Assembly (NCBI GenBank): GCA_012295275.1
Contig: CM022670.1
Coordinates: 31,062,001 to 31,126,000 of the forward strand
Source: Chrysomallon squamiferum
Lineage: Eukaryota; Animalia; Mollusca
DNA: 64,000 nt
Reading direction: 5' to 3'
Under the pieces are notes generated by a model, which saw only the letters and a program-made list of their open reading frames with translations, was not told the DNA's origin and did no database searches. This document shows, one piece after another, positions 11,629 through 57,554 of this stretch. A program made the translations under genes and the position numbers. Numbering within the stretch: the stretch's first letter is position 1; each line of letters begins with the position of its first letter.

Positions 11629-11665
<37 letters not shown>

Positions 11666-12586: not shown

Positions 12587-12630
<44 letters not shown>

Positions 12631-14926: not shown

Positions 14927-14961
<35 letters not shown>

Positions 14962-15740: not shown

Positions 15741-15789
<49 letters not shown>

Positions 15790-20951: not shown

Positions 20952-21000
<49 letters not shown>

Positions 21001-22693: not shown

Positions 22694-22735
<42 letters not shown>

Positions 22736-24574: not shown

Positions 24575-24613
<39 letters not shown>

Positions 24614-26628: not shown

Positions 26629-26684
<56 letters not shown>

Positions 26685-28306
26685 AAAAAGAAGTAAAACA
26701 CCCTACAAACTGACTGGATTAATGTTATTTCAGTTATTTTCAAGGCTAATTTAACTTGAGAAAAAAACATACTTTAATACAAAATATTGTAAAAATGTAA
26801 CTTAAATATCAAAGACTGTATTATTAAATAAACATCACTTCCCTAAGAAGGTTACCAAATAGTCATAGAACCAGGTAATCAAGGATTTACTGACTTCACA
26901 GAAATTCAATACTGACTTGCAGATGTCATGCTTTAGTTAAAAAAGGAGGTAAATAATGATAATTTATAAAAAATAATGGTACTGAAAATAATAAATCATT
27001 CTCTTAAACTGTGCAAATTTCATTAAGTAATGTTGATAAAATACTATATAAAATATCTAAATGGTAAAAAGGATCTAACATGAATAACTGGAAACTAAAA
27101 ACATTTTAATTAAAAAAGAAAGACAAAACAAAGATAAGTACACTGTTAAGAACTGCACAAATATAAATGATTATCAGAAGCAGATTAATAAATAACCTTA
27201 CAAAAAATAAAGGTAACTGAAAACAATAAACTATGTAAAGTCTGTACACAAGTATCTAAATATCAGATCTGCTTGGATTACACCATTAAGTTTTTATTTG
27301 CATGCCACAGCAATCAGGAAAAACAAAATGCCGGATTCAGCAATGCCATTCCGATCATTAGTATTATATTAATAAAAGAATTCTGCAAATCCTGTTTATT
27401 ATAATAAATAAACTATATTTTCCTTTTGTGAGTAAATAATCAATTTCTAGATCTATATTTTTATAAAAGTGAAATTACTTTTAAGATAAAATAGATTTCA
27501 CTACGAATTAATTTTATAAAAATTCACACCCTACATATATACAATAATTTTTTAAACAGATTTAATGATGCAGATATTCTGACATATAAATGGAACTTCA
27601 AGATCAAGCCAGACATTTACAACTTAAAATAATTTTATTATTACATCAGTACCCTTTATTTGATATCAGGTTTAAATCTAGAAATTGTCATGCTCTTTAC
27701 TACATAGTTAATATCTTTAATTTTATTCATTTTTAAAAATATTTTATACAATTAAGTCTATATTTGTATTTCATGAGACAGTTTATATTTAGTGAATATA
27801 AATTAGATATAATCCAAAATTCTATATGTCTAAATTTGCTAATACAGGTTACTAAGTGTATTACAATAATGAAATTAACAATCACATAAACATGCCTCAC
27901 TTTAAAAATTAAAAACTGTGACTTCACTGATGAATATAATAAGGAAAAAATTTTATATTCTTTACCATTTCTCAAAATTGAATTTCAAATATTTAAAAAA
28001 CAGATAAATAATTTTGATTTTACAAATATATATGCAACACACTGTGGACAGATGCTAGCCTTATTCTTGATTTTTTTAAATTGGCCTAAATTAGAAAGGC
28101 ACCATAATAAATTAAATGATTGCTATATAACCTTTATTATTTAATAATTTAATATTTCAAGAGAAAACAAATATCTTCTAAACTCTAATAAGTACATTAT
28201 TTATAGACTATATATATATATTTCAGTTACCCTTTGATCACAGACAAAGTCACTACCTCACTACTGATGTGGAATCCGTTAATAGATACACATAGCAAAC
28301 TTTAGC

Positions 28307-31300: not shown

Positions 31301-33902
31301 AAATATTACAAGATTATTTTTTATATATAATTATCTCAGTTAACATGACAGCTAAAATATTCTTGTATAGGAAACTTGAGAAAGATATACAATAATATCT
31401 GGACATATGATTTGTTTACATAAATTTTATTCTTACCATCATCATCATCATCAAGCAGATACTTTGAACGATAGACTGGCAGGGGATCATCATACGAATC
31501 TCTGTAAACCTAAAAATGAATTAAAAATTTCATTTCCATTTATTATGCTCCAAACCAGAATCCAAATAAAAATGTAAGTTACTGAAAAACCAATTATTGT
31601 TATTTTATTATATGACAATCTTATTTATCAAAACATTAGTTATCGTTATTATTATATAACATTATATATTATTGGACACATTCCATTTTCATTGAAGAAC
31701 CATAATCACTTTCATTAAATTATATATTACTATTTGTATGTGTGTGTGTACATGCATGTCTGCCTACATACATACATACATACATATATATATGTATCTA
31801 AGAGAGCAGTTTCATTGTTTATCTAAAAACAGTAACTAGTGACCACAAAAATATTTTTAAAATGTATTATTTATCTTTTATTTTTTTAATTAATGAATTG
31901 AAAACAATTGGCTAAATTAATTAAAGCTAGAATAATGAAACTAGATTCAAAAGCAATTTATCTACAAAGTCTAATGTCTTAAGCAAGCAAAACTGAAAGA
32001 TGAAATGTTTTGTATTCTTACACTGTTAAAAATCGGATAAATTCCAGTGAAAGATTAAAAGAATAAAATAATAATTTTTTGAAAGAATATGAAATAAAAC
32101 AAAAACTGTGAAAACATGAATAAGAAAATACTGATGTATTTTGTGCAAATGCCAATAAAACTAATTTTTAATTGTGCTATATAAACTGCCCCTTCTGTTT
32201 TATATTAAAAATAAGAAGTAATAATAAGAAACAATTTTGTTTTTAAATGTTTAAAGTTAGGTATCAGAAGAGAAAACATCAAATAACATTGCTTAAAATT
32301 TGCACACATCACCATAACAGTATTAAAAATCAAGGATATTTGTGTTTGCCAGTTCAAAATGTGACATACACAGTTATTAAAGTATGTTTTGATTAGTTAC
32401 CTTGCTCAGATGGTACCTGTGTCTCAGACTGGGGTAGTCTGAGTAATCATAGTCGTTGTAACCTCCTACAAAACAGAAAGGGTAGTCACATGCAGCATGC
32501 ACTAACTTCAGCAACACGCATAATGAATATATATTAATAATGTCTGACACATGTATTTTGTAATGATGGCTTGAGGGAAGAAATACACCATATGAAATAT
32601 ACTTTTTATATTATACACAACAGGAAATCAATGAAAGTCATGTGGCACTGGCAGGAATCAAATAGCTGAAGTGAAACATCAAGGAGAAGTGATCCCCAAC
32701 AACAGATTCTACATGCAGGATGCCATTACATTTTTTTTTTATTGTAACAAAGACAGCTAATATTCTCAGCTTGTCTAGTAAATTTTCAATTTATTTATTA
32801 ATTAAATATATATTTTAAAAACAATAAAAAAAATCTCTTCAAAATATCTATGAACAGAAATAATGTACAGATGTTTAAGTTGTTATCCATTAAAATCTTT
32901 TATAATAGCCTTAAATATTAATGCAATACCCTCTGTGAAAATGGGAATGTTTATAAAATAATTTATATTTGAGATTCAATCATGCAATACTTTCACAACA
33001 TAGTGGTTACCTATATGTCATATAATTTAGTGACCAACTGTGGAAATGTTTTTAAATACAAGTAAGTTAAACAATAAAAATGAATAAATGAAATGTGAAT
33101 ATATGAAATCAAAAACTGATGAAAACACTTTTAATTTCAATCAAACAACTACAATTGCAGGCAATGCATGCATTTGAAGTGTGTGAAATAATAAGGAACG
33201 AAAACCATGCCAAATTGGATGTTCATACCGGTACATTGTAATAGTGACCTGTTGGATGGTAATTATATGTGTGACCCCAATATGGCCGACCCATGTGTCG
33301 CTTATAGGCTTGACAAACCAAACAGTTCCTATCAATATAGCTAGTTCCATCACATGTACCATAGGCTATTGACAGATTAAGAAAATAAAATAAAAACTGT
33401 TAAGTAAATCAGCATAAATAAATAAATTAATATAAATAAACAAAAATCAACAATAAATAAATCAGTAAACAAACAAACAAATAAATAAATAAATAAATAA
33501 ATAAATAAAGAACTGGTTTTTTCATTAAACAGTAATGTCTATTAAACATGTCTCATCAGCTGAAACTGCCTAATACATCAGAATGGTAATCTGAAAAAGT
33601 TGAAGATTAAGTAAAGAAAATTCAATTCACTATGAAGCTATAACTATTAAAGTTTTGGAGCCATAATTACTGAAAAAAACCCTTCAATAATGAATAGTTC
33701 ATTGAAAACAATAACTAAAATCTAAAATTAAAAAAAAAAAAAAAAGATTAGTATTTCTGCATTTCTTAGAAATTTTTTATTTAAGATTATATAATCAAAT
33801 GCCTTTGTATCAAAAAAGTAATGCTGTGGTATTAATTAAAATATTTAATTTTAATTCAAAAATTATATATTTGCCACATTTTTATTATTATTTTTATTAT
33901 TA

Positions 33903-33946
<44 letters not shown>

Positions 33947-35085
33947 TTCTTAATCAGTTTATAAAGACAATATATATACAATATTTGAGATACCTAAACT
34001 AGACCGACTTGTGGATCTACTCAGACTGTAGCTTCTCTTTTTTTTCTTTTTGGCATTCTTCTCCACAGGGCCTCCAGGAACCCGACCTATTAGATCTGAA
34101 TCCAGCTGTGACAAAAGTTAACATTCAAACTGAATAAAAATAGCAAAATAACCACATAATACTTATGTTTTATCTGATGATTTTTTTTTTTTGTACACAT
34201 TTTTAAAAATGTATTATTATTATTATTTTATATGTTTAAATTAAAAAATGGAGTAAACATAACAATTTTTCTGTCAGAAGTGAGATTGTGTAATTAATTC
34301 ATTTCAAATAGCATATGAAATTTTTATTACAATGATTTATAGATTTGTAATTTGGCATATGTATTAATCTTCTCAAAATGCAAGGAAACTATCAAAATTC
34401 AATAAACAAATTTATCATTTTAAGAAACATCAACTTCTAACTTACTTATTATAAAATGGTAATTTAAAACAAAATTATAAATTAGGGCAATAAATAAATA
34501 AATCAATAAAAAGAAGCAAAATTCATATAATAATAAAGTTGTTTACTAAGTATCTAACCTTTCGGACAACAAATGGTGGTCGTGTGGTGTCAGTCAGATC
34601 AATGTCATCAAATCGTTTGTGCAGAGACAGTGATGGTGACCTAGAACGAAAAATAGAAGCTATGGTAGGCTGTCTGTACCTGTCTATTACAGGTTCTACC
34701 ATATGCTGATTACAGCATGACCTGTGAACAGAGAAGGAGAAAGTAAGATAAAGTGAAAAATTCTGATATGTAAAATTTAAATATATTTTAAAGGATGCTG
34801 GAATCATTTAGTAGTTTTTAAGAAATATTTCTTTTTTGAACAGCTTTGAAAAGTTGAATGTTCAAGATGAACCTGAATGAAACAGTTTTGCCTAGTTTTT
34901 ATTCTGTGATAAATGATAATAATTTCTGTTTTCAGACTCGGTGATTTTCACTTTTTAAATTATGCTTTAGACAAGTACTAAATGTAGATGATCAGTACAA
35001 TAAGAACTCATTTAGTTATCAAATTAACTTTTCAAAGATGGTTACTTATATTCCTACTTTCTCCTTGATTTCAATTATATATTTC

Positions 35086-35117
<32 letters not shown>

Positions 35118-38100
35118 TAATGTTTATGAAAACACTTAAAAAAGTAAATAAAATTGTGAAAAAACTACAATGTTTTATAAATCATAAAAAAAATCACAAA
35201 TATTAGTAGCCATATTCTTTGGAACAGAAAGAAGGATTGTTCCCCCCATCTCATGCATGCATTGTTCAACTGCAAAACTGAATGAAGGCTGCTTGTGAAA
35301 TGCAAATGTACCGAAAACAATTTTTAAGTTAATCTGAAGGTAAAATAATAAACCAGAAACAGTCAAGTGTTAATCTGTATAGTGACATATCTAAAACAAA
35401 AGTGGCAAGATCTTATTGGTAATGCATTATGAAAAACTGCCAAAAAAAAAAAAAAACAATAAAAAAATAAATTAAATTTAAAATAAATTAAAATAAATAG
35501 AAAATAATAAAAGAAAGAAAGAAAAGAAGAAAGAAAAACTAAGTCATTTATTAGCATAATGTTTATAAACCAAATTTTAAGATATCATCATGCGATGTCA
35601 TGCAAAAATCATAAAAATATCATTTTCTAAAGTAATTATAGCAGGTAATAATACTGCTACAACATGTCAAACCTATAATATACCTCAACAAAATTAATTA
35701 ATACAATTGGTTATACAGGCTGAAATAAAAGTGCAATAAAAAATTTAAAAAAACCATGCAGTAATATAATGTTAACTGAAATAAGGATTAAAGAAAAGAA
35801 ATTTTGACAATTATAGTGTTACCAATAACAATTTTTACGTTTTATTTATATCTTGAAATTCATTAAAGCTATATTTTTAATGATGCTTATTTTTAATTTA
35901 CAATTTAAAAAAAAAACAAAAAAAAACATGCCGTTTTTGACTGGAAAATAAAAAGATACATTATTTAATTTTAAAAAATAAAACAAGCTAAATATATTTA
36001 TTATGCAACCAATGCAAGTTATAATCTCAATAATCTGAAATCTGTTTCTAGCAGCTACACACAAAAACTAAAAGTAAGTTGCATCTAAAAGGTATGCAGT
36101 ATATGTACTGTTAGCTACATACATTTCACTCAGTTTAGTCAGGATTTTTTCACAATTCTTATTCTTACCGTGCTCGTTTTGGACTGGTAGATCTTTTTGT
36201 ACGCAAACGTCTTAGCCTCTGCAAAAAGAAAAATATAATTTAAAAATTCATGTGTGTGTGCATGTGCATATATATACATATAAATATATTTATCCTACAA
36301 CCTCTATAGCAGCAAGATATATGATGACTAGATACATTTTGGGGCTTTTTCAGATGGAACTATATTTAGTTTTATAAATCACTTATTATTTGCAAATATA
36401 TATCTGTGTGCGTGTGTTTGTGTTAATCAAAGTTACTTCTTTCACGTCAAATTTCTGGTGCAGAAAGACCATTTTGAAAATGGTTTTAGTAATATTAAAA
36501 TATAAATTGTTCTTTTAGAGCTGTTTTGTTTTAATGTATACTAAAATAAAAATAGATGCGTGTGAATTGATCAATGTCAAAAATGGCCTGTTGAGAAATA
36601 AAACAGTTAATTTTATTTAGTTTTTGTATTTTTAAGGAATAGAGGATAAATGAGTTAACTGGTTATTTCCTATGTTACGTATACTGTTATCATTTTCAAA
36701 ATTTTAACATCTGATCTATTTCCAAATGCTCAAAAGAAATCAACAGTAAAAATGTTTTCACATCACTGGGTTTTACACTTGCTGGTCACCTTGAATAAAG
36801 TAACAAAAATCCAAGCTAAAGAAATCTTCTTTATTTTCAAATAATAAAATAACATACAATAAAAAGATATAAATAATTTAAAAGATATATTACTGTACCA
36901 GATTCATCTGATGAAAAAGAAAATAATCTAAATATATTATAGAATCTTGTAATTTGGCATTTGGCATATTTCATTTTTAATTTAGAACTAAAAATCATAC
37001 CCTCTCTTCTTCCAAAGCATCATCTAACGCATCCAGTTCTGGTGAATAGGACTCCTTGATAACAGTTGATGTTGAGAATTCTAGCTTAGGTGCAATGCCC
37101 TATAGAAAAAATCATAAATAACAGTATTATATCACCAATAATAAATGTATGCAGGCGTAACAGTGATATGTCATAAACAACAGATTATAATAAACAGTTT
37201 ATATCTTGTAAATAAAAGAAATCAGGTGAAGGTGTAAGCAATGTTGAGAAAATGACATTTGTCAATTTATGAAATAAATATTTGGATGAGCAAATGCAGT
37301 AAATTATTTCAAATTAATATGAACTTTTAAAATACTGATAATGATTATAATACACTCTTTAATATAGTATTGCATATACAATCACCCTTTAGAAACCAGT
37401 ATATATTATTGTGGATATAAAGAATTAATAGTCACTAAAACAAACCACAAAAAAGAGAAATATGTTATAAAATGTGAGTGGATATCAATAGATTTGACTT
37501 ACTGGAAATGCAACAGTTCTACACATTAGTAGTTCTCGACATGTTGATGTGTATGTTGGTGCAAGTGATGGATATGGATACAGGAAGTCTCGCAAGTTAG
37601 TTGAAAATGTAGCCATTCGAACACCACCATCACAGTATTCTGAGAGCTGAATTAACTCAAAGATCACCAGTTCATCTGAAAGAACAAACAAAAAAACTAT
37701 ATGATCTTTTAGGTTTCATTTAAAATTAAGATATTTAAAAATAACAATCTGTAACCTAAATTTTACCTCTACTCCATGTTTATAAAGGCTGTTTCCGATA
37801 CAACCAAATAAAGTACTTCATGAAAAATAATTAGTAAAGATTACTACACTGTACACACACATAACTAGTAAAGGTCATCACACTGCACACACACACTCAC
37901 AAATATATATCCCTATCTGTTTATATATATATATATGTTTATTAAGTTTTTATATTGATTATTCTGTTCCTAAATGCAAAATCACACATTTTGTTAGTTA
38001 AGATTTTTTGTATCAGTGTATAACTTCTATTCATGCTTTTATAAAATTTAACTCCCAAAATTAGTGTTATCAATAAATAAAATTTAAAACATGGGATACC

Positions 38101-41100
38101 TTCCATGTAATCTGCAACATCTGATGGGTCCATTGCTGTATAAAAAGTCTGTTATAAAAAGAAAGCAAATGTTTTTGTATATATAACAGTATAATTAAAT
38201 ATATATTTATAATTATAGATGAACCTCAAATAACCACAAACCATATTTATGTACATGATTTCTTGTATGTTCAGATGTGGATGGTTTTAATATTGTTGGC
38301 CAAACAATTAATATTAACTATACAAATAGTTGAGAAAAAAAACTGACATTCCAAATGAAGTTTGAATAAAGTTATTGGGTCATTCCGTGTCAAATCACCC
38401 AATGGTTTAAACCCGACCGTCTCAGATTTTTATGAAACTTGGTATACTTGTTGACTGGGATCCCACAGCACCAAATCTGAAATTTTAGCTCAATCAGACC
38501 AGTGGTGTGGGAGATACGGCCCACCGAATTTTGAGATTTTTGCCAAAAATGGGTGTGGCCACCAACCTTAGAACCCTCACATCTCAGGAACTACTGGGCC
38601 AATCTTCATAAAATTGGTATTGTTAGAAAGGCAAAATGACAAGGATACCAAATCTGCCATTTTTGTTTAGTTTGGAAAATACTGGAGTACCTTGACCTTT
38701 TGACCTTTGCTATGACCTTGAAACTGACCGTGTGGATCACGTGATCTTGAGATGACCTTTGTTGAAATTTAATCTCCCACATGTTAACTAAAACATATAA
38801 AAGTTTCCTGGGTGTAATATTTTTTGTTTAGCCACAATATAGATTTAAAAAAATGCACATACATGAAAATAACACCTTTTCAGCCATTAACATCTGATTA
38901 ACTAAAACCTGAATGATCAATTCTGGATGCTAGGAATCACCATCTCTCTTGATCATGAAGTAAGACATTGTAGGCCTACATGTATGCATAAAGTTCACAT
39001 ATAAAGGTTTCCTGGGTATAATATTTTTTGTTTAGCCATAATAGAGATTTAAAAAATGCATACCTGCATGGATGATTGATACTATGCATTACAATGTACA
39101 TTTTTTCTGAGACTAAAACTCATCTTTGGAGTTAAAACCCATCTGACATGTCTGAAGGAATGCCTGAAGGATATGAAAAGATGCCAAATGGCATGACATG
39201 TTGTACACAATCAGGCTGAAAGGGTTAACAGGAAGTGATGCTTCAGGCAGGTCAGGAACTCCTTTAGATTCCCTGGTGCAATCCCCATTGAACACATGGC
39301 AATTAGAAGTTTAAGACAAAGAAGTTTAAGACAAAGAAGTTTCTTCATCTGCATTTCTTTGACAATCTGAAGCTTTTTAAGTTGGACACAGTGTCAGATG
39401 TTGATATATAAACAATATTTTTATTTCATAAAACCTATTAAGTAATTTTATCATGTCATGTGGGCCGTGCCATTGGTTTTGAACAAGGTTTCAGTCAACA
39501 ACAGTACAACCCAGTCTGAAATCAGACGTCATCGAGTGATGTACTGCATAATGTATTTGTACACCCAGTCTTCTGCACAGAGTATGAACAAGGTCTACTT
39601 CACCTTAATAAACTGTGATTTATACTTGAGAAGATTGACATAAATGCCCAAGACTTGTGGGCCTTTGGCAATAACACATGTACTCTGCTGCCATTTTATG
39701 ACCTGCTTAACTTTACTGAAAGGGTTTCAGGATTTGATTTAATATTTAGGAAAGCACCGACTTTGTTCTATTGAATTGAAGGTGCAGGCCAATACTGAAA
39801 ATCCTTATTTCTTCCAGGGCTAACTGCAGCTTTAACTCTCCTGAAAATGTGTGTTATCAACACCATCATATCAAAAAGGAGTTGTTGCGAAGTGCATGGA
39901 AAACTGAGGAAGTTGAACTCCTCACTCTTTGAAGTGGGATCAAAACACGGGACATCAAGAGTATCACGAACAAGAACTTTTCATCAAATTTTCAACATTG
40001 CAGAAAAACTGTTGTGATCCCCTTAATCGCCACCCTGAGCAAGCACGCACTAGATCTTTAAGAATTGTTAGCATGGGCACTTACAAATGCTTAGTAAATC
40101 CTCCAAAGACACTAGTGCCAGGAGACAAGTTGTGCTGTGACTGTCTGATTACCCTTCAGAAATCAAAGGTCCTGCAGAGGATGGCTTTAGTATGGGTGGT
40201 ATTACAATGGGAGAATTTGGTGATAACTTGCCAGACAAACCACTGGTTGTTGTTTCCCCAGAAAAGGACTTTGATTTGAATTCTATTCTGTCGAGTTTAG
40301 GTGAAACTCCTGTCAAACTCCATTCACTAGCAAATTCCAGTAAATGAATGAAAGGACAGAAAAAAACTAGCATCAGCTACAGTAACATTAAAATGACATC
40401 TTAATGTCTGAATCCTACCCAGAGTGTGTGCAAATCTTGATTTTGTCACCCTTTACCATTGAAAGGACAATGAATTGAAGGAGGAAATAATCCAATTTTA
40501 TGAAAGTGATGAGAACAGTAGAATGTGTCTGGGAATGAAGGATACAGTGAGCATTTGAAACAAACATAGTGAGAAGGTTAAGCATCAGAAACACCTAGTT
40601 CTCTCAAATTTATGTGAATTTTATGCATACATGTAGGCCTACAATGTCTTACTCAATGATCAAGAAAGATGGTGATCCCTAGCATCCAGAATTGATCATT
40701 CAGGTTTTAGTTAATCAGATGTTAATGGCTGAAAAGGTGTTATTTTCATGTATGTGCATTTTTTAAATCTATATTGTGGCTAAACAAAAAATATTACACC
40801 CAGGAAACTTTTATATGTTTTAGTTAACATGTGGGAGATTAAATTTCAACAAAGGTCATCTCAAGATCACGTGATCCACATGGTCAGTTTCAAGGTCATA
40901 GCAAAGGTCAAAAGGTCAAGGTACTCCAATATTTTCCAAACTAAACAAAAATGGCAGATTTGGTATCCTTGTCATTTTGCCTTTCTAACAATACCAATTT
41001 TATGAAGATTGGCCCAGTAGTTCCTGAGATGTGAGGGTTCTAAGGTTGGTGGTCACACCCATTTTTGGCAAAAATCTCAAAATTCGGTGGGCCGTATCTC

Positions 41101-42358
41101 CCATACCACTGGTCTGATTGAGCTAAAATTTCAGATTTGGTGCTGTGGGATCCCAGTCAACAAGTATACCAAGTTTTATAAAAATCTGAGACGGTCGGGT
41201 TTAAATTTCTTTTTTTTTTTGGGTGATTTGACACGGAATGACCCTATTACATTTGAATGAATTTATTACATTTGAATAAAGATAATACATTTCCACTTGC
41301 AACTGCTTTATTATTAATGAAATGTTTACCCTGACAACAAGCACTCTTACAAGTTAACAAAATTATATTTTCCAAGATTTCTTTTTTCTTTAAAATGAAA
41401 TAAAATTTTAAAAATAAATGTACCTTTTCAAATCTGAACTTTTCATTGATAAGCAATGGGAAAATGGATGGCATCAAATGTGTATTTTTGTACTGTCCAA
41501 GCATGGACACACTTAAGTACACCTCTTCTTTGCTGGGTAACCATACCCCAGGTGCCGAAACCTACAACAAAGAAAAACAGAATTATCAGGTATAACAGTG
41601 ACACATTTTAATGTGATAATTTGAGAATTTTTATTTTATTTATAAATTTTTCTTTTCTAGGATTATCTTTCATATTGGAGAAATGACACACTATCTTTTA
41701 TTTTATTATCAAGAAAATATCAAGCTGGATGTTATTCAGAATCAAATGCCGATCCACTGATATTGCCCTATTTGTCTGTTTCACTGGGACAAGAGGTTAC
41801 ATTACTTAACTATCCCCTTACAATGTTATGTATATCTTACATACCTCTAATAATTGTTTTACAAACAAGCTGAACATCCAATGCACTCATACATTTTAAC
41901 ATCAAAATACAGTTTTATTTATTTATTTACTTTTGTTTTGTTTTGTTTGTTTGATTTTCGGTCGTTGTTTTTAAAAGGGTTTCTTTTTTATTAATTTTTC
42001 TATTTATTTTAAAGTTTATAATTAATAGTAATAATACTGAATACATATTAACAGATATCCGATATCGCTTTTTCAGTAAATCATTTATAACACCCAAATG
42101 TGATATTATGCATTATTTTATTTTTTCTATACTAACAAATTAAAACTGACCAAATGAAGAAACAAAATTAATCAAAAGAAAATGCAAGTGAAGGTAAATA
42201 ATGATTGAGCGGGTTTAAGGAAACATGACCAAACTTGATATTCTATATGAAATAAATGAAAGCAGATTAAAAATAACAATTTAAAAGCACAAACTTCCAA
42301 ATTTACTTACGGCATGAAGCTTTAAATCCACAACACATCTAAGTGCTCGTTTAGGCAT
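28307..42358 (-). CDS. SPATA6: Spermatogenesis-associated protein 6 family (SPATA6/SPATA6L-like), complete; ~493 or ~469 aa depending on isoform
   Basis: Exons 42311-42358, 41424-41561, 38100-38148, 37503-37675, 37001-37099, 36169-36218, 34559-34721, 33994-34105, [33229-33365 or 32401-32465], 31437-31509, 30866-31077, 29918-30006, 28307-28445, all GT-AG. N-terminus MPKRALRCVVDLKLHAVSAPGVWLPSKEEVYLSVSMLGQYKNT...FELIQL...RDFLYP...FPGIAPKLEFSTSTVIKE, internal RPPFVVR and C-terminal LVHLNRGEYW...GKSHRIVFNDNLSKIYSNLYNKA match recalled SPATA6 motifs. Confidence 0.92.
28580..29020. repeat. Degenerate AT-rich tandem repeat (core TAAATATTTCTACATTATAAAGAAGAGTAAATTAATT) in the last SPATA6 intron
   Basis: Several diverged copies are visible at roughly 55-65 bp spacing. 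Confidence 0.6.
32401..32465 (-). CDS. SPATA6: SPATA6 alternative exon B (phase 1 to 0)
   Basis: ttttgtag|...AAG|GTAACT; encodes (G)GYNDYDYSDYPSLRHRYHLSK. Phase-0 reading hits TGA. Confidence 0.65.
33229..33365 (-). CDS. SPATA6: SPATA6 alternative exon A (phase 1 to 0)
   Basis: aatag|...|GTATGA; encodes (A)YGTCDGTSYIDRNCLVCQAYKRHMGRPYWGHTYNYHPTGHYYNVP with no stop. Confidence 0.65.
38377..41244 (+). mobile_element. Sola2-type DNA transposon, internally deleted, in SPATA6 intron 2
   Basis: Termini GGGTCATTCCGTGTCAAATCACCC ... GGGTGATTTGACACGGAATGACCC. Near-identical TIRs of ~620 bp (38377-~39000 and ~40612-41244), 4-bp TSD TATT on both sides, GRG ends. Plus-strand transposase relics NCCDPLNRH...PGDKLCCDC and IIQFYESDENSRMCLGMKDTVSI*...QKHLVLSNLCEFYA resemble the Sola2 N-terminal region. 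Confidence 0.85.
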
Positions 42359-42608: not shown

Positions 42609-43519
42609 TAATATATCCAGTTCTTTTAAATATACAAGTAACCTTGTAAATATAAACAATATTTCATTATCTAAATTATCCCATCTCAGAAACAAAAGCA
42701 TTAACCGGAACAACGACTCGGAACGTCAAAGAGAAAATAACGGATTAGTGAAAATCTATTATTTAAATATACATTTAACTGAATTCGTGCATCTCAAGAT
42801 TATTAAATTTTTATTGAATTATAAATATCGTAATATGTTGTAATTTTAATGTCGGCACAAATAAAAAGTTCCAAAAATTCCATAAAAATAAAAATATATA
42901 TATATATATGATTAAAAGTTGAAATTCTTTATGCAGTTTTTCCCCTCCTTGCTCGCGTTAAAGAAAACCTTCTCGATTAAATTTAAAACTCCAATCTATT
43001 CTATACACTATGAATGAACACGTGAAGACTAACAAAAGTAGCTTAAATGTGTAATTCTTGTAATGGATCAGTCAATAGCATCCCTCATACTAAGCTAGGC
43101 CGTTTCGTACCAGCCGAGAGCAAAATAGAAAGTGATCAAGATTCATGGAATTTGTACAAACATTCAAGAACATTATGTCAATGCATGATCACTGAAGAGG
43201 ACATGGCCGTTAAAAACAAGCCGTTAATCCTAAAAATATGGTCCATCGTGCGAACAGAACGGGGTTCCTCTCCTTATCTCTGGTAATTAAAATCTGAGCC
43301 ACAAATTAGCAAGATATTATCGGATGTTTATAACGTTTCATGTGATAAATCCATACGGTAACAGACCATGGTTTGGGTTTCAGAAGTTTTAATAAATTCG
43401 ATGCCCAGCGATTCTAAAAATGTTAGTTCTTAAACAAATAGTTTTAAATAATCCAGCTATAAATATGACTTTTGTACCATAAAACGCAACAATGGTTTCA
43501 AGATCACCATTTTATTAAA

Positions 43520-46500
43520 TTATTTAAAGCGATTACATTCCGGGATCTCTTTTCCATATTGAATAAAGTATTTTTTGTACACGTTGCATTTTCTTTCGAG
43601 AAATAGTTTCAGATTTTGCCACATTGCAGTCCGAGGATCGAGTCCAGTCACAGGAACTGTGAAATTCATCTTCAAGATCGCCTTCATATTCCGAAATAAT
43701 CTGCAAAAGTTTTATTAATAGGATGTCTGGGGAGAAAAATTCTTACATATTCGTGTTTCATTTTTACAACCTTTCAAATTTTGTGAATTAAAAATTAAAA
43801 ATGTACAAAAGTGCAATCGTTATGAAAGTTAATTCACTTGATATTACAGTCTTGCAAAATATTTTCAATGTCGTTCAACAGATTTCAAAGATTAAAAAAA
43901 TTGTCTATTGCTTTCCTAAATACGATCCGTTTCTTCCAATACAAACTTACTCGTTTATGGCTTCGAAATCTTTCATTTCTCCTTTTCACGACGATGTTCA
44001 CAAAATCATGGTGAGGCACATTCACTAAAATTTAAAAATTGAACTATAACACATTTTCCAGTGATAATTTCAATATTAAGGAAAGGAATATAGTGTATCA
44101 CAGAATGCCGAATACATATACTTTAATCTGAAGTGGCTCTTATCACTTGCCTTCTTCATCGATTTTTCTGTCTTCCCAATTTAATCTTTTCACGACGTGC
44201 TTGAAAGCGGCCAACTGACCTTCATCTGCAAGGTAGACATTTTAAAATTAACAATTACGTATGCATCACGATGCCGACAGTAAATCAAATGGATTTTACG
44301 TTTCTTTTAAAAATTCTTACTCAAAAGCCTTTCTTTTTTTTATCCAAAGCGCCCGTGCGTTCGTCTCTCAATCCGGATAAGATGCGCTTTGCCGTTTGAT
44401 AACCTCGTTTTAATATTCTTTTGGCCGAATTTTCAACTTGTACTTTTACTTCATAATCAAAATGCGACAACGGCAAAATTTTCAGCAAATCGTTGAAATC
44501 TTCGTATCTGGAATGTAAAATTTAGTCAACTAAATTAAAATTTTCATTTTGAAACTTTAGCATTTTAGTCTTTTGAATTCGGGCATATGCAGTATCAGAA
44601 GACAACCTGACCTCCGCCAAACATAACATTTTCCACCTCAGATTTATATATTACATATAAAACCTATTTCACACTGGTGCTACTATTCATTCTTATAATG
44701 ATGCAAGCATTTTTGCATTTATACGTTGAAGTTGTTTCATGATTTTTTTTTTTTTTGTTTTTTTTTTTTTATGGAAATCTACAAAATAAGATACCACTAT
44801 GCAAAAAGTATACTTGCATAGTATGACCAAGTTTCTTACCGCTCTTCAAAATCTCGTTTGACATCGCTGAAGATTCCCATCAACTTATCTGCATGTAGAC
44901 ACTTCAGATCCAAACCAGCGGCTTCACCTTCCTTCCTAATATAGAACCTGATCTTCTCTTTCAGCTTCCCTTCGTCGATTAGTTTTACAATCGTAGGATA
45001 AATCTTTTTGATGTATCTGTCCGATTCTGCCATTTAAAATGCAAAATTCTAAATTTCAAAATCTAAATTGGTACATTGATTTCATCAAGTTATAAAACCC
45101 ACAGCCACAGATTTGAGGGTACAGTTAAAATGCTAGATACAGAAATTCACTATATGGATTTCCAATTTATTCATCTAGAAATTGAATTTCTAATTTAAAT
45201 TTCATATAAATTGAACAGTTCTGTCTTATTACTCAAGTATTGTTTATCCAATTACTTAAAACATTTCAGTATTTGCATTTTTCAGAAGTATTACAATTTT
45301 AGAACATTTGAATTAACGCAGATTGCTCGGAAACAATTACTTTCCGATAGTCGGAACAAAACGTCGTCCATTAAATCGTTTGTCAAGTTGCCGAACATCT
45401 TCCTAGCGTAGAAAACGACGTCTTCACGAGATACATCGTGCTTCTTCAAAACATTCACGATGGCCATAAAAGAATCGTTTTCTAATCGTAGAACAACTGG
45501 GAAAGATCTTCCAACGGCATCTACAAAATTTATATTTAAATTACAAGTTATATTTAAATTACATATACGGTCGAATGCACCCAACTAATAATTTTTATCA
45601 ACATTTTCTGACAACTGGCAAAAACAATTTCACATTTTCAACCGATTTTGTCTGGCTGGGAGTAAATTTACAAACGAGCTTTATTGTAATAGTTTAAATG
45701 AAAACCAAAAGCTGAATCGGCTTTATAAGCTGAAATTGTTTCTGGAAACGGATTAAAAACATTTCAGTTTTCGTAAACTTGTTTGATAAAATTTTCGTAT
45801 CCTAACGTTTCGTTTTTACTTACACATGATAATTCGGTTGAAGAGCGTGGAAGGACAGTTTGCCGTGGTATTGAGAGTTTTCTCAACCAAGCTGACCATC
45901 ATTTGTTTGGCTGCCATCCTCGCATCACTAGTCAATTCAAAAATGGACAAAGCCTCGTTTATAATGGGGTTAATCGAATCCTCCAGGTTTTCCACTTCAT
46001 CTGCAGAAAGTGCACATTTGTCCAGTTTAATACAAACAAGTTTGAAGTAACGTTTCGTTCACTAAATAGTATTCATGTACATTATCGTATATCATTAAAT
46101 TTACCAATTTTAAAATAACTTAATTTTATAGCTCTACGATTTTCTTCACCAGCTTAAAATAACATACCAGACATTTTGCTTATATCTGGAAATCCAATGT
46201 AATGTTTCAATACTGTAGGTTTCAAATCGAAGCATTTAAGTTCATTTTCATCATCGTCGTCGTCGTCGTCGTCGTCTTCCTTATCTTGGTAATCTGGATG
46301 AACTTTGTCATCCGGAGGAATCGTTTTATCATTTTGCCCAGGAATTTCATTCAGTTCACGAAAAATATCTTCCAACGCTACTTCGTCGAAAGGTCCGCGA
46401 ATTGAATAACCTGTGTTTTGTTGTTTTTAAAAAGAAAAAAAAAAAAAAAAAAAAAAATTGAAATTCCAACTTACAGACAAAAATATAGAAAACACATTCA

Positions 46501-46860
46501 AAAGGATTACAACGTATTGTTAAGTTTTTGCCAGCTACAGTGTATTTAAAAATTGAATTCATTAAAGTGTAACGAATGCCGTTCTTCTGAAGAAGGATCA
46601 TACAATATTTTAAAGTATTTGCACTTTTGTTATGCATTTCCTAAATCCGTTCTGTTTGGCCTTTTAAGAAAAGTCTTTACTTCGTGTAATATAGGAATGA
46701 TTTCAAAATATGAACGAAATTCAAAACGAAAAAAAAAAGAAAAAGAGAAACAAAAAAGAAGTTTAAAGAATAAAATAAATTTACAGTAAAGAGATTTATT
46801 TCTAAACTTACCAAAAACAAAAGGACTTCCTAACAAACAAAGCAATAAACACACCAACAT
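43520..46860 (-). CDS. Mirror copy of the same secreted-protein gene (left arm); as written it has homopolymer frameshifts in exons 6 and 8
   Basis: Reverse complement of 47680-51017. A8 instead of A6 at ~44334-44341 gives a premature TGA, and A4 instead of A3 at ~43983-43986 shifts the frame. These may be real lesions or consensus errors. Confidence 0.7.
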
Positions 46861-46896
46861 TTTGACAAGAGACTGGCAAACAGGTTTGAATTGGTC

Positions 46897-46999
46897 TTTT
46901 ATAGAAGCAAAATATATCAGCACATAAATTTATATTTGCACGTGATAATACAACTAAACACGATGACTCAATGCAGAAAAATCCAATCAGATCACGTGA
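46897..46999 (-). promoter_or_regulatory. Mirror promoter of the left-arm gene copy
   Basis: Reverse complement of 47541-47643. Confidence 0.62.
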
Positions 47000-47540
47000 T
47001 TCACGTTCATTTTAAAAGGAATAATAAAAGAAAAAAAAAAAAAAAAAAGACACCAACAATAAAAGATAAAATACTGTAGTACTGGTTTTAGTTTAGTTTT
47101 TGTGTTATGTAATTCGGCGAGAAATCGTGAAAAAAGTTGGATACAATTTTTCAAAAATTAATGAACAACTTAATTTATGAAACACTTTTTATTTTATTTG
47201 TTCCTGTATTTCTACTGAACAAATAAAAAAAAAAAAAATTAAAAAGTGTTTTTTCTTTTTCTAAAAGGAATAATAAAAGAAAAAGAAAAAACACTTTTTA
47301 ATTTTTTTTTTTTTTATTTGTTCAGTAGAAATACAGGAACAAATAAAATAAAAAGTGTTTCATAAATTAAGTTGTTCATTAATTTTTGAAAAATTGTATC
47401 CAACTTTTTTCACGATTTCTCGCCGAATTACATAACACAAAAACTAAACTAAAACCAGTACTACAGTATTTTATCTTTTATTGTTGGTGTCTTTTTTTTT
47501 TTTTTTTTTCTTTTATTATTCCTTTTAAAATGAACGTGAA

Positions 47541-47643
47541 TCACGTGATCTGATTGGATTTTTCTGCATTGAGTCATCGTGTTTAGTTGTATTATCACGT
47601 GCAAATATAAATTTATGTGCTGATATATTTTGCTTCTATAAAA
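47541..47643 (+). promoter_or_regulatory. Compact promoter of the right-arm gene: TCACGTGA E-box, reverse CCAAT, AP-1, second CACGTG, TATA
   Basis: TCACGTGA 47541-47548, ATTGG 47553-47557, TGAGTCA 47570-47576, CACGTG 47596-47601, TATAAAA 47637-47643, ATG at 47680. Confidence 0.65.
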
Positions 47644-47679
47644 GACCAATTCAAACCTGTTTGCCAGTCTCTTGTCAAA

Positions 47680-50600
47680 ATGTTGGTGTGTTTATTGCTT
47701 TGTTTGTTAGGAAGTCCTTTTGTTTTTGGTAAGTTTAGAAATAAATCTCTTTACTGTAAATTTATTTTATTCTTTAAACTTCTTTTTTGTTTCTCTTTTT
47801 CTTTTTTTTTTCGTTTTGAATTTCGTTCATATTTTGAAATCATTCCTATATTACACGAAGTAAAGACTTTTCTTAAAAGGCCAAACAGAACGGATTTAGG
47901 AAATGCATAACAAAAGTGCAAATACTTTAAAATATTGTATGATCCTTCTTCAGAAGAACGGCATTCGTTACACTTTAATGAATTCAATTTTTAAATACAC
48001 TGTAGCTGGCAAAAACTTAACAATACGTTGTAATCCTTTTGAATGTGTTTTCTATATTTTTGTCTGTAAGTTGGAATTTTTTTTTTTTTTTTTTTTTTTT
48101 TTTGTTCTTTTTAAAAACAACAAAACACAGGTTATTCAATTCGCGGACCTTTCGACGAAGTAGCGTTGGAAGATATTTTTCGTGAACTGAATGAAATTCC
48201 TGGGCAAAATGATAAAACGATTCCTCCGGATGACAAAGTTCATCCAGATTACCAAGATAAGGAAGACGACGACGACGACGACGACGATGATGAAAATGAA
48301 CTTAAATGCTTCGATTTGAAACCTACAGTATTGAAACATTACATTGGATTTCCAGATATAAGCAAAATGTCTGGTATGTTATTTTAAGCTGGTGAAGAAA
48401 ATCGTAGAGCTATAAAATTAAGTTATTTTAAAATTGGTAAATTTAATGATATACGATAATGTACATGAATACTATTTAGTGAACGAAACGTTACTTCAAA
48501 CTTGTTTGTATTAAACTGGACAAATGTGCACTTTCTGCAGATGAAGTGGAAAACCTGGAGGATTCGATTAACCCCATTATAAACGAGGCTTTGTCCATTT
48601 TTGAATTGACTAGTGATGCGAGGATGGCAGCCAAACAAATGATGGTCAGCTTGGTTGAGAAAACTCTCAATACCACGGCAAACTGTCCTTCCACGCTCTT
48701 CAACCGAATTATCATGTGTAAGTAAAAACGAAACGTTAGGATACGAAAATTTTATCAAACAAGTTTACGAAAACTGAAATGTTTTTAATCCGTTTCCAGA
48801 AACAATTTCAGCTTATAAAGCCGATTCAGCTTTTGGTTTTCATTTAAACTATTACAATAAAGCTCGTTTGTAAATTTACTCCCAGCCAGACAAAATCGGT
48901 TGAAAATGTGAAATTGTTTTTGCCAGTTGTCAGAAAATGTTGATAAAAATTATTAGTTGGGTGCATTCGACCGTATATGTAATTTAAATATAACTTGTAA
49001 TTTAAATATAAATTTTGTAGATGCCGTTGGAAGATCTTTCCCAGTTGTTCTACGATTAGAAAACGATTCTTTTATGGCCATCGTGAATGTTTTGAAGAAG
49101 CACGATGTATCTCGTGAAGACGTCGTTTTCTACGCTAGGAAGATGTTCGGCAACTTGACAAACGATTTAATGGACGACGTTTTGTTCCGACTATCGGAAA
49201 GTAATTGTTTCCGAGCAATCTGCGTTAATTCAAATGTTCTAAAATTGTAATACTTCTGAAAAATGCAAATACTGAAATGTTTTAAGTAATTGGATAAACA
49301 ATACTTGAGTAATAAGACAGAACTGTTCAATTTATATGAAATTTAAATTAGAAATTCAATTTCTAGATGAATAAATTGGAAATCCATATAGTGAATTTCT
49401 GTATCTAGCATTTTAACTGTACCCTCAAATCTGTGGCTGTGGGTTTTATAACTTGATGAAATCAATGTACCAATTTAGATTTTGAAATTTAGAATTTTGC
49501 ATTTTAAATGGCAGAATCGGACAGATACATCAAAAAGATTTATCCTACGATTGTAAAACTAATCGACGAAGGGAAGCTGAAAGAGAAGATCAGGTTCTAT
49601 ATTAGGAAGGAAGGTGAAGCCGCTGGTTTGGATCTGAAGTGTCTACATGCAGATAAGTTGATGGGAATCTTCAGCGATGTCAAACGAGATTTTGAAGAGC
49701 GGTAAGAAACTTGGTCATACTATGCAAGTATACTTTTTTGCATAGTGGTATCTTATTTTGTAGATTTCCATAAAAAAAAAAATCCAAAAAAAAAAAATCA
49801 TGAAACAACTTCAACGTATAAATGCAAAAATGCTTGCATCATTATAAGAATGAATAGTAGCACCAGTGTGAAATAGGTTTTATATGTAATATATAAATCT
49901 GAGGTGGAAAATGTTATGTTTGGCGGAGGTCAGGTTGTCTTCTGATACTGCATATGCCCGAATTCAAAAGACTAAAATGCTAAAGTTTCAAAATGAAAAT
50001 TTTAATTTAGTTGACTAAATTTTACATTCCAGATACGAAGATTTCAACGATTTGCTGAAAATTTTGCCGTTGTCGCATTTTGATTATGAAGTAAAAGTAC
50101 AAGTTGAAAATTCGGCCAAAAGAATATTAAAACGAGGTTATCAAACGGCAAAGCGCATCTTATCCGGATTGAGAGACGAACGCACGGGCGCTTTGGATAA
50201 AAAAGAAAGGCTTTTGAGTAAGAATTTTTAAAAGAAACGTAAAATCCATTTGATTTACTGTCGGCATCGTGATGCATACGTAATTGTTAATTTTAAAATG
50301 TCTACCTTGCAGATGAAGGTCAGTTGGCCGCTTTCAAGCACGTCGTGAAAAGATTAAATTGGGAAGACAGAAAAATCGATGAAGAAGGCAAGTGATAAGA
50401 GCCACTTCAGATTAAAGTATATGTATTCGGCATTCTGTGATACACTATATTCCTTTCCTTAATATTGAAATTATCACTGGAAAATGTGTTATAGTTCAAT
50501 TTTTAAATTTTAGTGAATGTGCCTCACCATGATTTTGTGAACATCGTCGTGAAAGGAGAAATGAAAGATTTCGAAGCCATAAACGAGTAAGTTTGTATTG

Positions 50601-51017
50601 GAAGAAACGGATCGTATTTAGGAAAGCAATAGACAATTTTTTTAATCTTTGAAATCTGTTGAACGACATTGAAAATATTTTGCAAGACTGTAATATCAAG
50701 TGAATTAACTTTCATAACGATTGCACTTTTGTACATTTTTAATTTTTAATTCACAAAATTTGAAAGGTTGTAAAAATGAAACACGAATATGTAAGAATTT
50801 TTCTCCCCAGACATCCTATTAATAAAACTTTTGCAGATTATTTCGGAATATGAAGGCGATCTTGAAGATGAATTTCACAGTTCCTGTGACTGGACTCGAT
50901 CCTCGGACTGCAATGTGGCAAAATCTGAAACTATTTCTCGAAAGAAAATGCAACGTGTACAAAAAATACTTTATTCAATATGGAAAAGAGATCCCGGAAT
51001 GTAATCGCTTTAAATAA
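47680..51017 (+). CDS. Unassigned secreted protein, 9 exons, ~449 aa (right-arm copy, intact)
   Basis: Exons 47680-47728, 48131-48373, 48541-48717, 49021-49200, 49515-49701, 50033-50217, 50313-50387, 50514-50586, 50837-51017 total 1350 nt in one open frame with all eight intron phases compatible (seven GT-AG, one GC-AG). Signal peptide MLVCLLLCLLGSPFVFG, acidic D9 tract, upstream TATA box, AATAAA 4 nt after the stop. Confidence 0.82.
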
Positions 51018-51020
51018 TTT

Positions 51021-51026
51021 AATAAA
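51021..51026 (+). terminator. Candidate polyadenylation signal AATAAA of the right-arm gene
   Basis: Immediately follows the stop TAA (51015-51017). The AT-rich context lowers specificity. Confidence 0.45.
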
Positions 51027-51254
51027 ATGGTGATCTTGAAACCATTGTTGCGTTTTATGGTACAAAAGTCATATTTATAGCTGGATTATTTAAAACTATT
51101 TGTTTAAGAACTAACATTTTTAGAATCGCTGGGCATCGAATTTATTAAAACTTCTGAAACCCAAACCATGGTCTGTTACCGTATGGATTTATCACATGAA
51201 ACGTTATAAACATCCGATAATATCTTGCTAATTTGTGGCTCAGATTTTAATTAC

Positions 51255-51619
51255 CAGAGATAAGGAGAGGAACCCCGTTCTGTTCGCACGATGGACCATA
51301 TTTTTAGGATTAACGGCTTGTTTTTAACGGCCATGTCCTCTTCAGTGATCATGCATTGACATAATGTTCTTGAATGTTTGTACATATCCCCTGAAAATGA
51401 CTTTCCACTAACACCCAGCGGCTCATCAACGGGTATAAAGCCCGCAAACCTTTCTTTAAATGGCTATATCGTTACAACGAACTCGGTCAAAGGTTGATAA
51501 CTGATGAAATGTTTTTCAAAAATTGCTTCGGGGTAGATAGACGTTAATCAATTTATCCTGCATGTACGTCATTAAATTAAGATCGTGATTCATGGATACT
51601 TACGTTCTGATCTTTTCAT
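51255..51619 (-). CDS. Possible small two-exon gene (~50 aa) converging on the right-arm gene
   Basis: TATAAA at 51689-51694; exon 51604-51619 (ATG AAA AGA TCA GAA C|GTAAGT); acceptor ttttcag then exon 51255-51390 in matching phase: MKRSERDMYKHSRTLCQCMITEEDMAVKNKPLILKIWSIVRTERGSSPYL. No recognisable homology. Confidence 0.3.
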
Positions 51620-52651
51620 TTTTTATTTTTATTTTTTTATTTTCTTTTTATTTGTACACTTGCATAAAAGTAGGTGAATAATTCCCGCTTTATAATTTTT
51701 GAACTTGTATTACCTGTCGCTTGTAAATGTAAATTTGTTTTAAACATTTCATTTAGCAGACTTTAATGGAATTATACCTCTCCGTTATGATGTATGCTGT
51801 ATGTCTTAAACCCTGGAGACAAATATTGCATCTGCAGGTGTTCTCAACAAACAAAAAATAATAAATAAAATCCAATGAGAATATAAAATAATAAAATAAT
51901 ACAAAACAAAACAAAATTATATTTAAACTGAAAACGATAACGGATAAAAAAAAATGATAATAATAATTAAAAAAAATACTTTTTAAAATCTGCATCGACA
52001 AATTCATGAGAATCGAATTAGGCTCTAATTCGACTTATTTCCGAAACCAGTGGTTTTGGAAGGGCATGAACACCTTGTTATTTTGTCATTTACCTAATGG
52101 TTTTATGTTTAAGGCATTAAGAGACCGTAACCAAGCTCATGCCCTATATGTTTGATAATGATCAAGATAACTTTTTTTACTCCTTTATATCCCACTATAT
52201 CTATTTCTTATTTGTTTTAAACGTGTGTGTATATATAAGGAAGAAAAAAAAGAATGTTTTTTGTTGCTAATTGTAGGTATAGCAGCGTGTCTGATGTTTC
52301 AGTATACTGCACTATTCAGAATATATCCTGTTTTAATTTAATCAATTTAACAAAACACTGCCAATAATATCTTAAATTGTAATCAACCAGCGATCAGGAT
52401 GTTTCGACAGAGGGAAATTCAAAGTAGATAATATATCTGATCGCAACATTCCATACATATATAATACGATGTTGTTAGATATACACGGTAAGAAACCAAT
52501 GAATATATAATAGATATTATAGATTTATTATTGCTTTTGTTAAATTAAAGGCATTCAGTTTAATTCTGTTTACTTTGTTTATAGTATAATTCTTATTATA
52601 TAACAAGTATGTGTATTTTGTTAGTTCAAGTGTATCTATAAGTGTGTATGT

Positions 52652-57170: not shown

Positions 57171-57554
57171 TCAAGTCGGTTGGTCTGCAATATGCTTGCT
57201 AAATTGTACCACCTCATATATACAAGATCCCGGTGCCTCGGGATCCGACACGCCTACGACAATGAATTTCTCACTTCTGTGTGCCACCAAAATGTAATCT
57301 TCCGTGCGACCGACTATCGTTCCATTGCTGTTGTGCGTAAAACACGTGAAAATGCCTTCTGAAAATGTTAGTTTGGTCAGAGCCGGGTAAGTACTTGATA
57401 TAGCTTTCAAAAGACTCGAAGCGTCACCAGAGGAAACTTTCCATTCTTGAGTAGAAGCAACAATTTGTCCATCAAGACTAATGATAGCCGCGTTTTCAAC
57501 CTTTCCTCGTTTCACCAATCCTCGTAACAAATCGTTCCATCTTCTTTCTTTCAT
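57171..57554 (-). CDS. Profilin-family protein (divergent, 127 aa, single coding exon)
   Basis: Profilin length and pattern: N-terminal W (RWNDLL), VENAAIISLDGQIVAS, late beta strands ILVAHRSEKFIVVGV, C-terminal helix PGSCIYEVVQFSKHI. TATAAAT on the minus strand at ~57661-57667. Confidence 0.8.
   Translation of the reverse strand: MKERRWNDLLRGLVKRGKVENAAIISLDGQIVASTQEWKVSSGDASSLLKAISSTYPALTKLTFSEGIFTCFTHNSNGTIVGRTEDYILVAHRSEKFIVVGVSDPEAPGSCIYEVVQFSKHIADQPT

What the first reader, a model, noticed from the sequence alone, without database searches (positions are those of the whole stretch)
47680..51017. Hidden 9-exon gene for a ~449-aa secreted, acidic-leader, probably helical protein of no family I recognise
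Seen: the ORF track shows only fragments, but splicing joins them into one frame: MLVCLLLCLLGSPFVFG|YSIRGPFDEVALEDIFRELNEIPG...KEDDDDDDDDDENELKCFDLKP...|DEVENLEDSINPIINEALSIF...|YAVGRSFPVVLRLE...|KSDRYIKKIYPTIVKLIDEG...|RYEDFNDLLKILP...|NEGQLAAFKHVVKRLNW...|VNVPHHDFVNIVVKG...|ELFRNMKAILK...EIPECNRFK*. Eight compatible intron phases plus a signal-peptide exon and TATA box are unlikely by chance. Inference: an acidic pro-region, four ~60-codon exons with amphipathic helical patterning, five Cys after the signal peptide, several KR sites and a weak internal repeat (LKCF..FPDI vs LKCL..FSDV) suggest a lineage-specific exported effector (gamete, mucus, shell or immune). Function is unknown.
Basis: partly seen in the sequence, partly recalled or inferred. 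Interest (0 to 1): 0.82.

Follow-up and report, generated by a model that had tools for sequence, protein, structure and literature searches.

The report
Twin vent-snail secreted orphan gene
A real, spliced gene, present as two near-identical head-to-head copies, encodes a predicted secreted, helical protein whose only relative found is in a deep-sea vent snail, and whose acidic tail likely binds metal ions, though its job is untested.

Summary
The gene model is right: RNA contigs join all 8 introns (one is GC-AG) into a 449-aa frame. Arm depth is twice flank depth and both outer junctions exist in run X5, so two copies are real. One full-length relative was found among 1.84 billion representatives: an uncharacterised protein of the vent snail Gigantopelta aegis, 47% identical over 375 aa, with signal peptide, acidic tract and all five cysteines kept. 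No Pfam, NCBIfam, PHROG or PDB family fits. The internal repeat, KR processing sites and cationic-effector reading are not supported. Published scaly-foot snail gene models at the syntenic spot (mapping inferred) are family-restricted, expressed in gland, gill, mantle and scale epithelium, barely in foot, and absent from shell and scale proteomes. Best guess (0.3): a soluble extracellular metal-ion carrier working like oyster segon; close rival (0.25): a lysosomal or phagocyte lipid-handling protein. Real, taxon-restricted, already annotated as a gene, function open.

The parts
47680..47728 (+). Exon 1: predicted signal peptide (aa 1-17, V-x-G before the likely cut)
   Evidence: same pattern in ortholog
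48131..48373 (+). Exon 2: short helix, Asp-rich tract (aa 41-72, 16 of 32 residues D/E), start of body with Cys76
48541..48717 (+). Exon 3: amphipathic helices, Cys146
49021..49200 (+). Exon 4: three predicted helices, conserved N-glycan sequon at 171, start of the most conserved block (aa 189-238)
49515..49701 (+). Exon 5: helices, Cys259
50033..50217 (+). Exon 6: long amphipathic helix
50313..50387 (+). Exon 7, followed by a GC-AG intron (50388-50513)
50514..50586 (+). Exon 8
50837..51017 (+). Exon 9: Cys428, Cys445, stop; AATAAA at 51021
47505..47679 (+). Proximal promoter inside the arm: E-boxes CACGTG at 47542 (TCACGTGA) and 47596, TGAGTCA at 47570, TATAAAA at 47637
   Evidence: motifs only, no function shown
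47505..51385 (+). Right arm of the inverted duplication (3,881 nt)
43153..47035 (-). Left arm (3,883 nt) with the second gene copy, ATG at 46860, stop at 43520; as assembled it shifts frame after aa 336 at homopolymer indels that X5 and the RNA contigs do not show
47036..47504 (.). Centre: assembled as a near-perfect hairpin with a 15-nt loop; likely a single ~220-nt spacer that the assembly doubled
   Evidence: X5 contig 13 at single-copy depth 50.8, 223 letters from 47063 to its end as the model predicts

Best explanation
This is a spliced nine-exon gene, present as two head-to-head copies, for a 449-residue protein with a predicted signal peptide, an aspartate-rich tract and a predicted all-helical body, which likely works outside the cell as a soluble metal-ion carrier. 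Shown: splicing, two copies, a 47%-identical ortholog in the vent snail Gigantopelta aegis. Inferred: the signal peptide is removed, the protein is glycosylated and disulfide-pinned (five kept Cys), and the flexible Asp (here) or Asp/His (ortholog) tract stays attached and chelates Ca, Zn, Cu or Fe, while the helical body keeps the load soluble in blood, mucus or tissue fluid, as oyster segon and dominin are proposed to do. Inferred: each arm carries its own promoter, so the duplication would double the dose. Confidence: gene and two copies above 0.95; restriction to this snail family about 0.7; the metal-carrier mechanism about 0.3.
For: Splicing. Two copies: X5 flank contigs at depth 57.5 and 56, arm contig 113.6, both outer junctions present. 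Ortholog: (E 7e-115). The tract keeps its chemistry though not its sequence: D+E+H is 53% of aa 41-72 here and 54% of aa 57-143 in the ortholog, which has 5 copies of a DDHKHDGG unit and 12 His; leader net charge -17 and -22. No convertase site separates tract from body. No transmembrane-strength segment here (best 19-aa hydropathy 1.1) and no KDEL-like end. No HExxH or CxxC motif. Syntenic published models (mapping inferred): identical TPM for both copies, foot 3.4, scale epithelium 41, mantle 54, gland 85, gill 80; phylostratum 11 = Peltospiridae; not in shell or scale proteomes, so soluble rather than structural. The two snails split about 116 Ma and gained symbionts independently (PMC7895826, passages), so the gene predates both symbioses. 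Functional model: oyster segon, a haemocyte-secreted metal-binding plasma protein without known relatives (PMC6530089, passages).
Against: No binding, localisation or protein-level detection is shown. The tract is only about 7% of this protein and has one His; the conserved 375-aa body, which probably holds the main function, is unexplained. The promoter and spacer hold no TGCRCNC metal-response element (consensus recalled) but do hold a CLEAR-type box, which points to the lysosome rival. Published TPM of 40-85 per copy is moderate for a major plasma protein, and no blood sample was among the tissues. The G. aegis model was not in that species' metaproteome table. The mapping to published IDs rests on gene order and twin scores, not on sequence; their hit score (61) is low against SPATA6 (511). 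Acidic tracts occur in many secreted proteins without metal transport roles.
Confidence: 0.3

Rival explanations
1. A lysosomal or phagocyte protein: it would be routed by its N-glycans to the endolysosome and use its amphipathic helices to extract or carry lipids while bacteria or symbionts are digested; the acidic tract would be a pH or calcium sensor.
For: Two CACGTG boxes within 140 nt of the ATG, one an exact TCACGTGA CLEAR core (PMC6355916 passages); 0 of 2000 dinucleotide shuffles and no other of 338 tiles hold two (motif picked after the fact). Conserved sequon 171. Strong helical amphipathicity in both species (z 4.9, 5.2). Highest published TPM in gland and gill; lysosome genes are high in the gland of both snails (PMC7895826 section 8).
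Against: Not in the gland-enriched lists: the scaly-foot IDs occur only in the novel-gene column and the G. aegis ID is missing from the fold-change table. No six-cysteine saposin pattern (recalled) and no Pfam lipid-binding hit. E-boxes bind many bHLH factors.
Confidence: 0.25
2. An antibacterial or membrane-lytic immune effector made as a precursor whose acidic piece would mask a basic mature part (closest to the first reader's view).
For: Leader net -17, body net +6 and pI 8.8 in this species; expression in bacteria-facing tissues; dose doubling is common in defence genes (general knowledge).
Against: Ortholog body is acidic (net -10, pI 5.8); no dibasic site between tract and body in either species; no toxin or antimicrobial family hit that the ortholog shares.
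Confidence: 0.12
3. A shell or scale matrix protein whose acidic tract would template mineral.
For: Signal peptide plus Asp-rich low-complexity tract; expression in mantle and scale epithelium; many uncharacterised hard-part proteins in these snails are family-specific (PMC11871041 section 5).
Against: The mapped IDs occur only in ortholog and gene-age tables, not in the 168, 178 and 156-protein shell and scale proteomes; gland and gill exceed mantle. Only acid-soluble fractions gave identifications, and the mapping is inferred.
Confidence: 0.08
4. A calcium buffer or chaperone of the secretory pathway, like calsequestrin or histidine-rich calcium-binding protein (names recalled).
For: Signal peptide, Asp and Asp/His tracts, broad expression in secretory epithelia.
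Against: No KDEL-like end; nearly silent in foot muscle; such proteins are usually ancient and would have Pfam hits.
Confidence: 0.08
5. The second copy is an assembly artefact (fold-back long read).
For: Arms differ only at or beside homopolymer runs; the centre is assembled as an implausibly perfect hairpin; X5 shows no cover at 47215-47345 (repeat-skipped).
Against: Arm depth 113.6 against 57.5 and 56 for the two flanks, and contigs across both outer junctions; two annotation versions list twin models beside SPATA6. X5 may be the sample behind the assembly, which limits independence but not the depth test.
Confidence: 0.04

Closest known systems
XP_041358798.1, uncharacterized protein LOC121375420, Gigantopelta aegis (P0004, 520 aa)
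   Same: Signal peptide, acidic tract, 177 of 375 identical residues in the body, 5 of 5 mature Cys, one sequon, helical amphipathicity.
   Different: Its tract is twice as long and made of Asp/Gly/His repeats; its body is acidic; one model in G. aegis against two copies here. Function unknown there too.
Oyster plasma proteins segon and dominin/cavortin (PMC6530089, passages)
   Same: Secreted; segon is an orphan; proposed metal binding and transport: the working model, not a relative.
   Different: No sequence link found; dominin has a Cu/Zn SOD domain that this protein lacks; abundance in plasma is not shown here.
Acidic, lineage-specific molluscan shell matrix proteins (PMC11871041)
   Same: Signal peptide, low-complexity acidic tract, family-restricted age.
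   Different: Large folded conserved body; mapped IDs not in the hard-part proteomes.
Young head-to-head duplicate genes in animals (PMC3194840, passages)
   Same: Inverted, linked, near-identical pair; head-to-head pairs were 10-21% of linked recent duplicates in the table rows seen.
   Different: Here the arms are only about 220 nt apart and show no substitution outside homopolymer runs over 3.9 kb.

Membership tests
Dominin/cavortin/pernin (SOD-derived plasma proteins) | Cu/Zn superoxide dismutase domain | tested here: not met
   No such Pfam hit at E<=1 for 8 exons or the full ortholog
Segon-like plasma metal carriers | Sequence similarity to segon | tested here: inconclusive
   Segon was not compared directly; the exon-4 search of 1.84 billion representatives gave only P0004 and a chance TPR protein
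Segon-like plasma metal carriers | Secreted by haemocytes, abundant in plasma, binds calcium and other metals | not testable with these tools
   Signal peptide predicted by pattern only
Saposin-like lipid-binding proteins | Six-cysteine pattern per ~80-aa domain (recalled) | tested here: not met
   Five Cys spread over 375 aa in both species; no Pfam hit
Helical lipid carriers (nematode FAR, insect allergen repeat, apolipoproteins; names recalled) | Profile match or shared fold | tested here: inconclusive
   No Pfam hit; no confident model of the body was available to search
Ribosome-inactivating proteins (Shiga A-like) | Full RIP domain with catalytic part downstream of the matched strand region | tested here: not met
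   Only a ~35-aa match in the last exon, E 0.015-0.64, with no room for the rest; the ortholog shows no such hit
Acidic shell/sclerite matrix proteins | Detected in the mineral matrix | tested here: inconclusive
   Mapped IDs absent from three proteome tables, but mapping is by gene order and only soluble fractions were identified
Precursors with a cleaved acidic propiece | Conserved basic cleavage site after the acidic piece and a cationic mature part | tested here: not met
   No dibasic site there; ortholog body pI 5.8
CLEAR-network lysosomal genes | TCACGTGA near the start | tested here: met
   47541-47548 plus a second E-box; motif from PMC6355916
CLEAR-network lysosomal genes | Lysosomal location and MiT/TFE dependence | not testable with these tools
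   needs bench work
Palindromic duplications kept alike by gene conversion | Arms above 99% identical around a short spacer | tested here: met
Palindromic duplications kept alike by gene conversion | Variants shared by both arms in a second individual | tested here: inconclusive
   X5 differs from both arms at 44704 and 45614 in one collapsed contig; contigs cannot tell conversion from a dropped variant

The most novel reading that the evidence does not exclude
A new all-helical secreted fold private to peltospirid vent snails that ferries iron or other metals through blood and mucus, whose dose was doubled in the iron-armoured scaly-foot lineage by a tight palindrome that gene conversion keeps identical.
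Probability: 0.12. Interest if true: 0.8.

Novelty: new member of a known kind. Interest (0 to 1): 0.42.

Why it matters
How vent snails handle metal- and sulfide-rich fluid and house bacteria is an open question, and their family-specific genes are almost unstudied. This one is old (kept for roughly 70-180 million years), moderately expressed in the tissues that face vent fluid and bacteria, has a 375-residue body with no recognisable family, and was recently doubled. It gives a concrete protein to express and fold, and a clean comparative test in non-symbiotic peltospirids. The duplication also shows how a tight palindrome is mis-assembled (false frameshifts, doubled spacer). Against that: orphan secreted proteins and young inverted duplicates are common in molluscs, the gene is already annotated, and no function is shown.

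Full report
1. Observation. Joined by coordinates they give 1,350 nt, 449 residues and a single stop. Four RNA runs (X1-X4, one study, assembled contigs) bridge introns 1 to 8 in 2, 4, 4, 4, 3, 2, 3 and 3 of 4 runs. Seven introns are GT-AG; intron 7 starts with GC, and the read-through frame stops two codons later. Residues 1-17 look like a signal peptide by pattern (no predictor was run). Residues 41-72 are half Asp/Glu. The body (73-449) has helical periodicity well above shuffles (z 4.9 at 100 degrees, 0 of 200; none at strand angles) and no membrane-spanning stretch. The claimed internal repeat is chance: no exon pair beats shuffles (best 37 of 500) and the best off-diagonal score, 32, is under the shuffled median, 33.

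2. The gene fills one arm of an inverted repeat, 43142-51395, 99.5% identical. A mirror copy runs from ATG 46860 to stop 43520. This could be a long-read artefact, so I laid run X5 (kind not on record; it covers introns and flanks like DNA) on the left arm. A contig at depth 57.5 joins the unique left flank to the arm; another at depth 56 joins the arm end to the right flank; the arm contig has depth 113.6. Two copies are therefore real in X5. All arm differences sit in or beside homopolymer runs. The two that break the left frame after residue 336 are absent from X5 and from the RNA contigs that cover them, so they are likely assembly errors, though contigs drop variants. The centre is also suspect: a 267-nt contig there has single-copy depth (50.8), and a model with one 220-nt spacer predicts 223 letters from 47063 to the contig end, exactly as seen; the predicted total is 280, 13 more than seen, at a poly-A end. 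The likely true layout is two 3.88-kb arms, ATGs about 570 nt apart, each arm with its own promoter.

3. Relatives. Eight exons gave no Pfam, NCBIfam or PHROG family at a credible level. A HMMER search of 1.84 billion representatives with exon 4 gave 2 hits. One is chance. The other is XP_041358798.1, uncharacterized, from the vent snail Gigantopelta aegis: 177 of 375 residues identical, 3 gap positions, E 7e-115. It keeps the signal peptide, all five mature cysteines and one glycan sequon. Its acidic tract is longer and built of Asp/Gly/His repeats, with the same D+E+H share (54% vs 53%). Its body is acidic (pI 5.8 vs 8.8), and no dibasic site follows the tract in either protein. Residues 189-238 are the most conserved (36 of 50; 48 of 5000 shuffles). 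The full ortholog also has no family, PDB or Atlas match. No prokaryote, phage or viral relative was found.

4. Neighbourhood and published data. In the window the pair sits about 800 nt upstream of SPATA6 (ATG 42358), with a large lipid transfer protein gene beyond it and a profilin-like gene on the other side. In supplements of PMC7895826 (rows only), G. aegis contig ctg1169 carries SPATA6, an apolipoprotein and ctg1169-1.12-1, which hits two scaly-foot snail models, Scaf103_21.6 and 21.8, with the same score; SPATA6 is 21.7. PMC7142155 supplements (12 of 13 files) list both only as novel genes, in no tissue-enriched column. PMC11871041 file 3 (cut when stored) groups two v2.0 models with ctg1169-1.12-1, gives both phylostratum 11 (Peltospiridae by the paper's list) and the same TPM: foot 3.4, scale epithelium 41.4, mantle 53.7, oesophageal gland 84.7, gill 79.9; they do not occur in the shell or scale proteome sheets. 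I saw no sequences for these IDs. The mapping, and the view that the window is from the scaly-foot snail or a very close relative, rest on gene order, twin copies and orphan status. The two snails split about 116 Ma (71-184) and gained symbionts independently (PMC7895826 passages), so the gene is older than either symbiosis.

5. How it most likely works. Shown: transcription, splicing, two copies, long conservation. Inferred: export, glycosylation, disulfides, a retained flexible acidic tract. I commit to a soluble extracellular metal-ion carrier (0.3): the one property kept in the fast-changing tract is a dense array of carboxylate and imidazole groups, the protein seems to be made in the tissues that meet vent fluid and bacteria, and it is not found in the hard parts. 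It would work like oyster segon, an orphan plasma metal binder (PMC6530089 passages), without being related to it. Weak points: the tract is small, the conserved body is unexplained, and there is no metal-response element upstream. The promoter instead has two E-boxes, one an exact CLEAR core (0 of 2000 shuffles hold two), which keeps a lysosomal or phagocyte lipid-handling role close behind (0.25). A masked lytic effector (0.12), a matrix protein (0.08) and an ER calcium buffer (0.08) fit worse; a gamete role is unlikely given the broad somatic expression, though gonad was not among the tissues.

6. Known and new. The gene is annotated but undescribed: five identifiers occur in the main text of 0 papers of the library. 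It belongs to a known kind, the taxon-restricted secreted protein with a low-complexity acidic tract, and to no named family. Young head-to-head duplicates are common in animals (10-21% of linked pairs in the rows seen, PMC3194840 passages); what stands out is the short spacer and the lack of substitutions, meaning very recent origin or ongoing conversion. Papers seen: PMC11871041 abstract, section 5 parts 1-2 and supplement rows; PMC7895826 abstract, section 8, passages and supplement rows; PMC7142155 section 8, passages and supplement rows; PMC6530089, PMC13768707, PMC6355916, PMC3194840 passages; all others as search listings only. Saposin, FAR, calsequestrin, metal-response and Sola features are recalled.

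7. Verdict. Real, expressed, duplicated, family-restricted as far as searched, function open. Interest 0.42.

Noticed in passing
window 38377-41244: A 2,868-nt element with ~630-nt terminal inverted repeats (96% alike), GGG...CCC ends and TATT on both sides, inside a SPATA6 intron; looks like a non-autonomous DNA transposon (Sola-like, recalled).
   Followed up: partly
window ~5100-22700, minus strand: Large lipid transfer protein (apolipophorin-like) gene with Vitellogenin_N, open beta-sheet and DUF1081 hits and one 5.5-kb open frame without a Pfam hit; the syntenic G. aegis model has log2FC 2.2 in that paper's fold-change table.
   Followed up: partly
window 17070-17393, minus strand: Tc1-like transposase remnant within the lipid transfer gene.
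   Followed up: no
window 57171-57554, minus strand: Divergent profilin-like frame with a single relative found, P0002, 76% identical.
   Followed up: partly
window 47280-47396 (mirror 47144): A low-depth contig of RNA run X1 matches the spacer and then continues for 255 or more letters not found in the window: another spacer allele or a repeat elsewhere.
   Followed up: partly
window 44001-52000 vs 24001-40000: CpG observed/expected is 1.2-1.3 over the twin genes (1.45 in the coding sequence) and about 0.3 over 24-40 kb, suggesting unmethylated versus methylated gene bodies (interpretation recalled).
   Followed up: no
window 44704 and 45614 (mirrored in the right arm): X5 differs from both arms at these two intronic sites in one full-depth contig: possible arm-to-arm conversion or a collapsed variant.
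   Followed up: partly
G. aegis model ctg1169-1.12-1 (PMC7895826 supplement): Labelled 'eIF4B, putative'; if it is the ortholog, the label likely comes from its Asp/Gly repeats.
   Followed up: no
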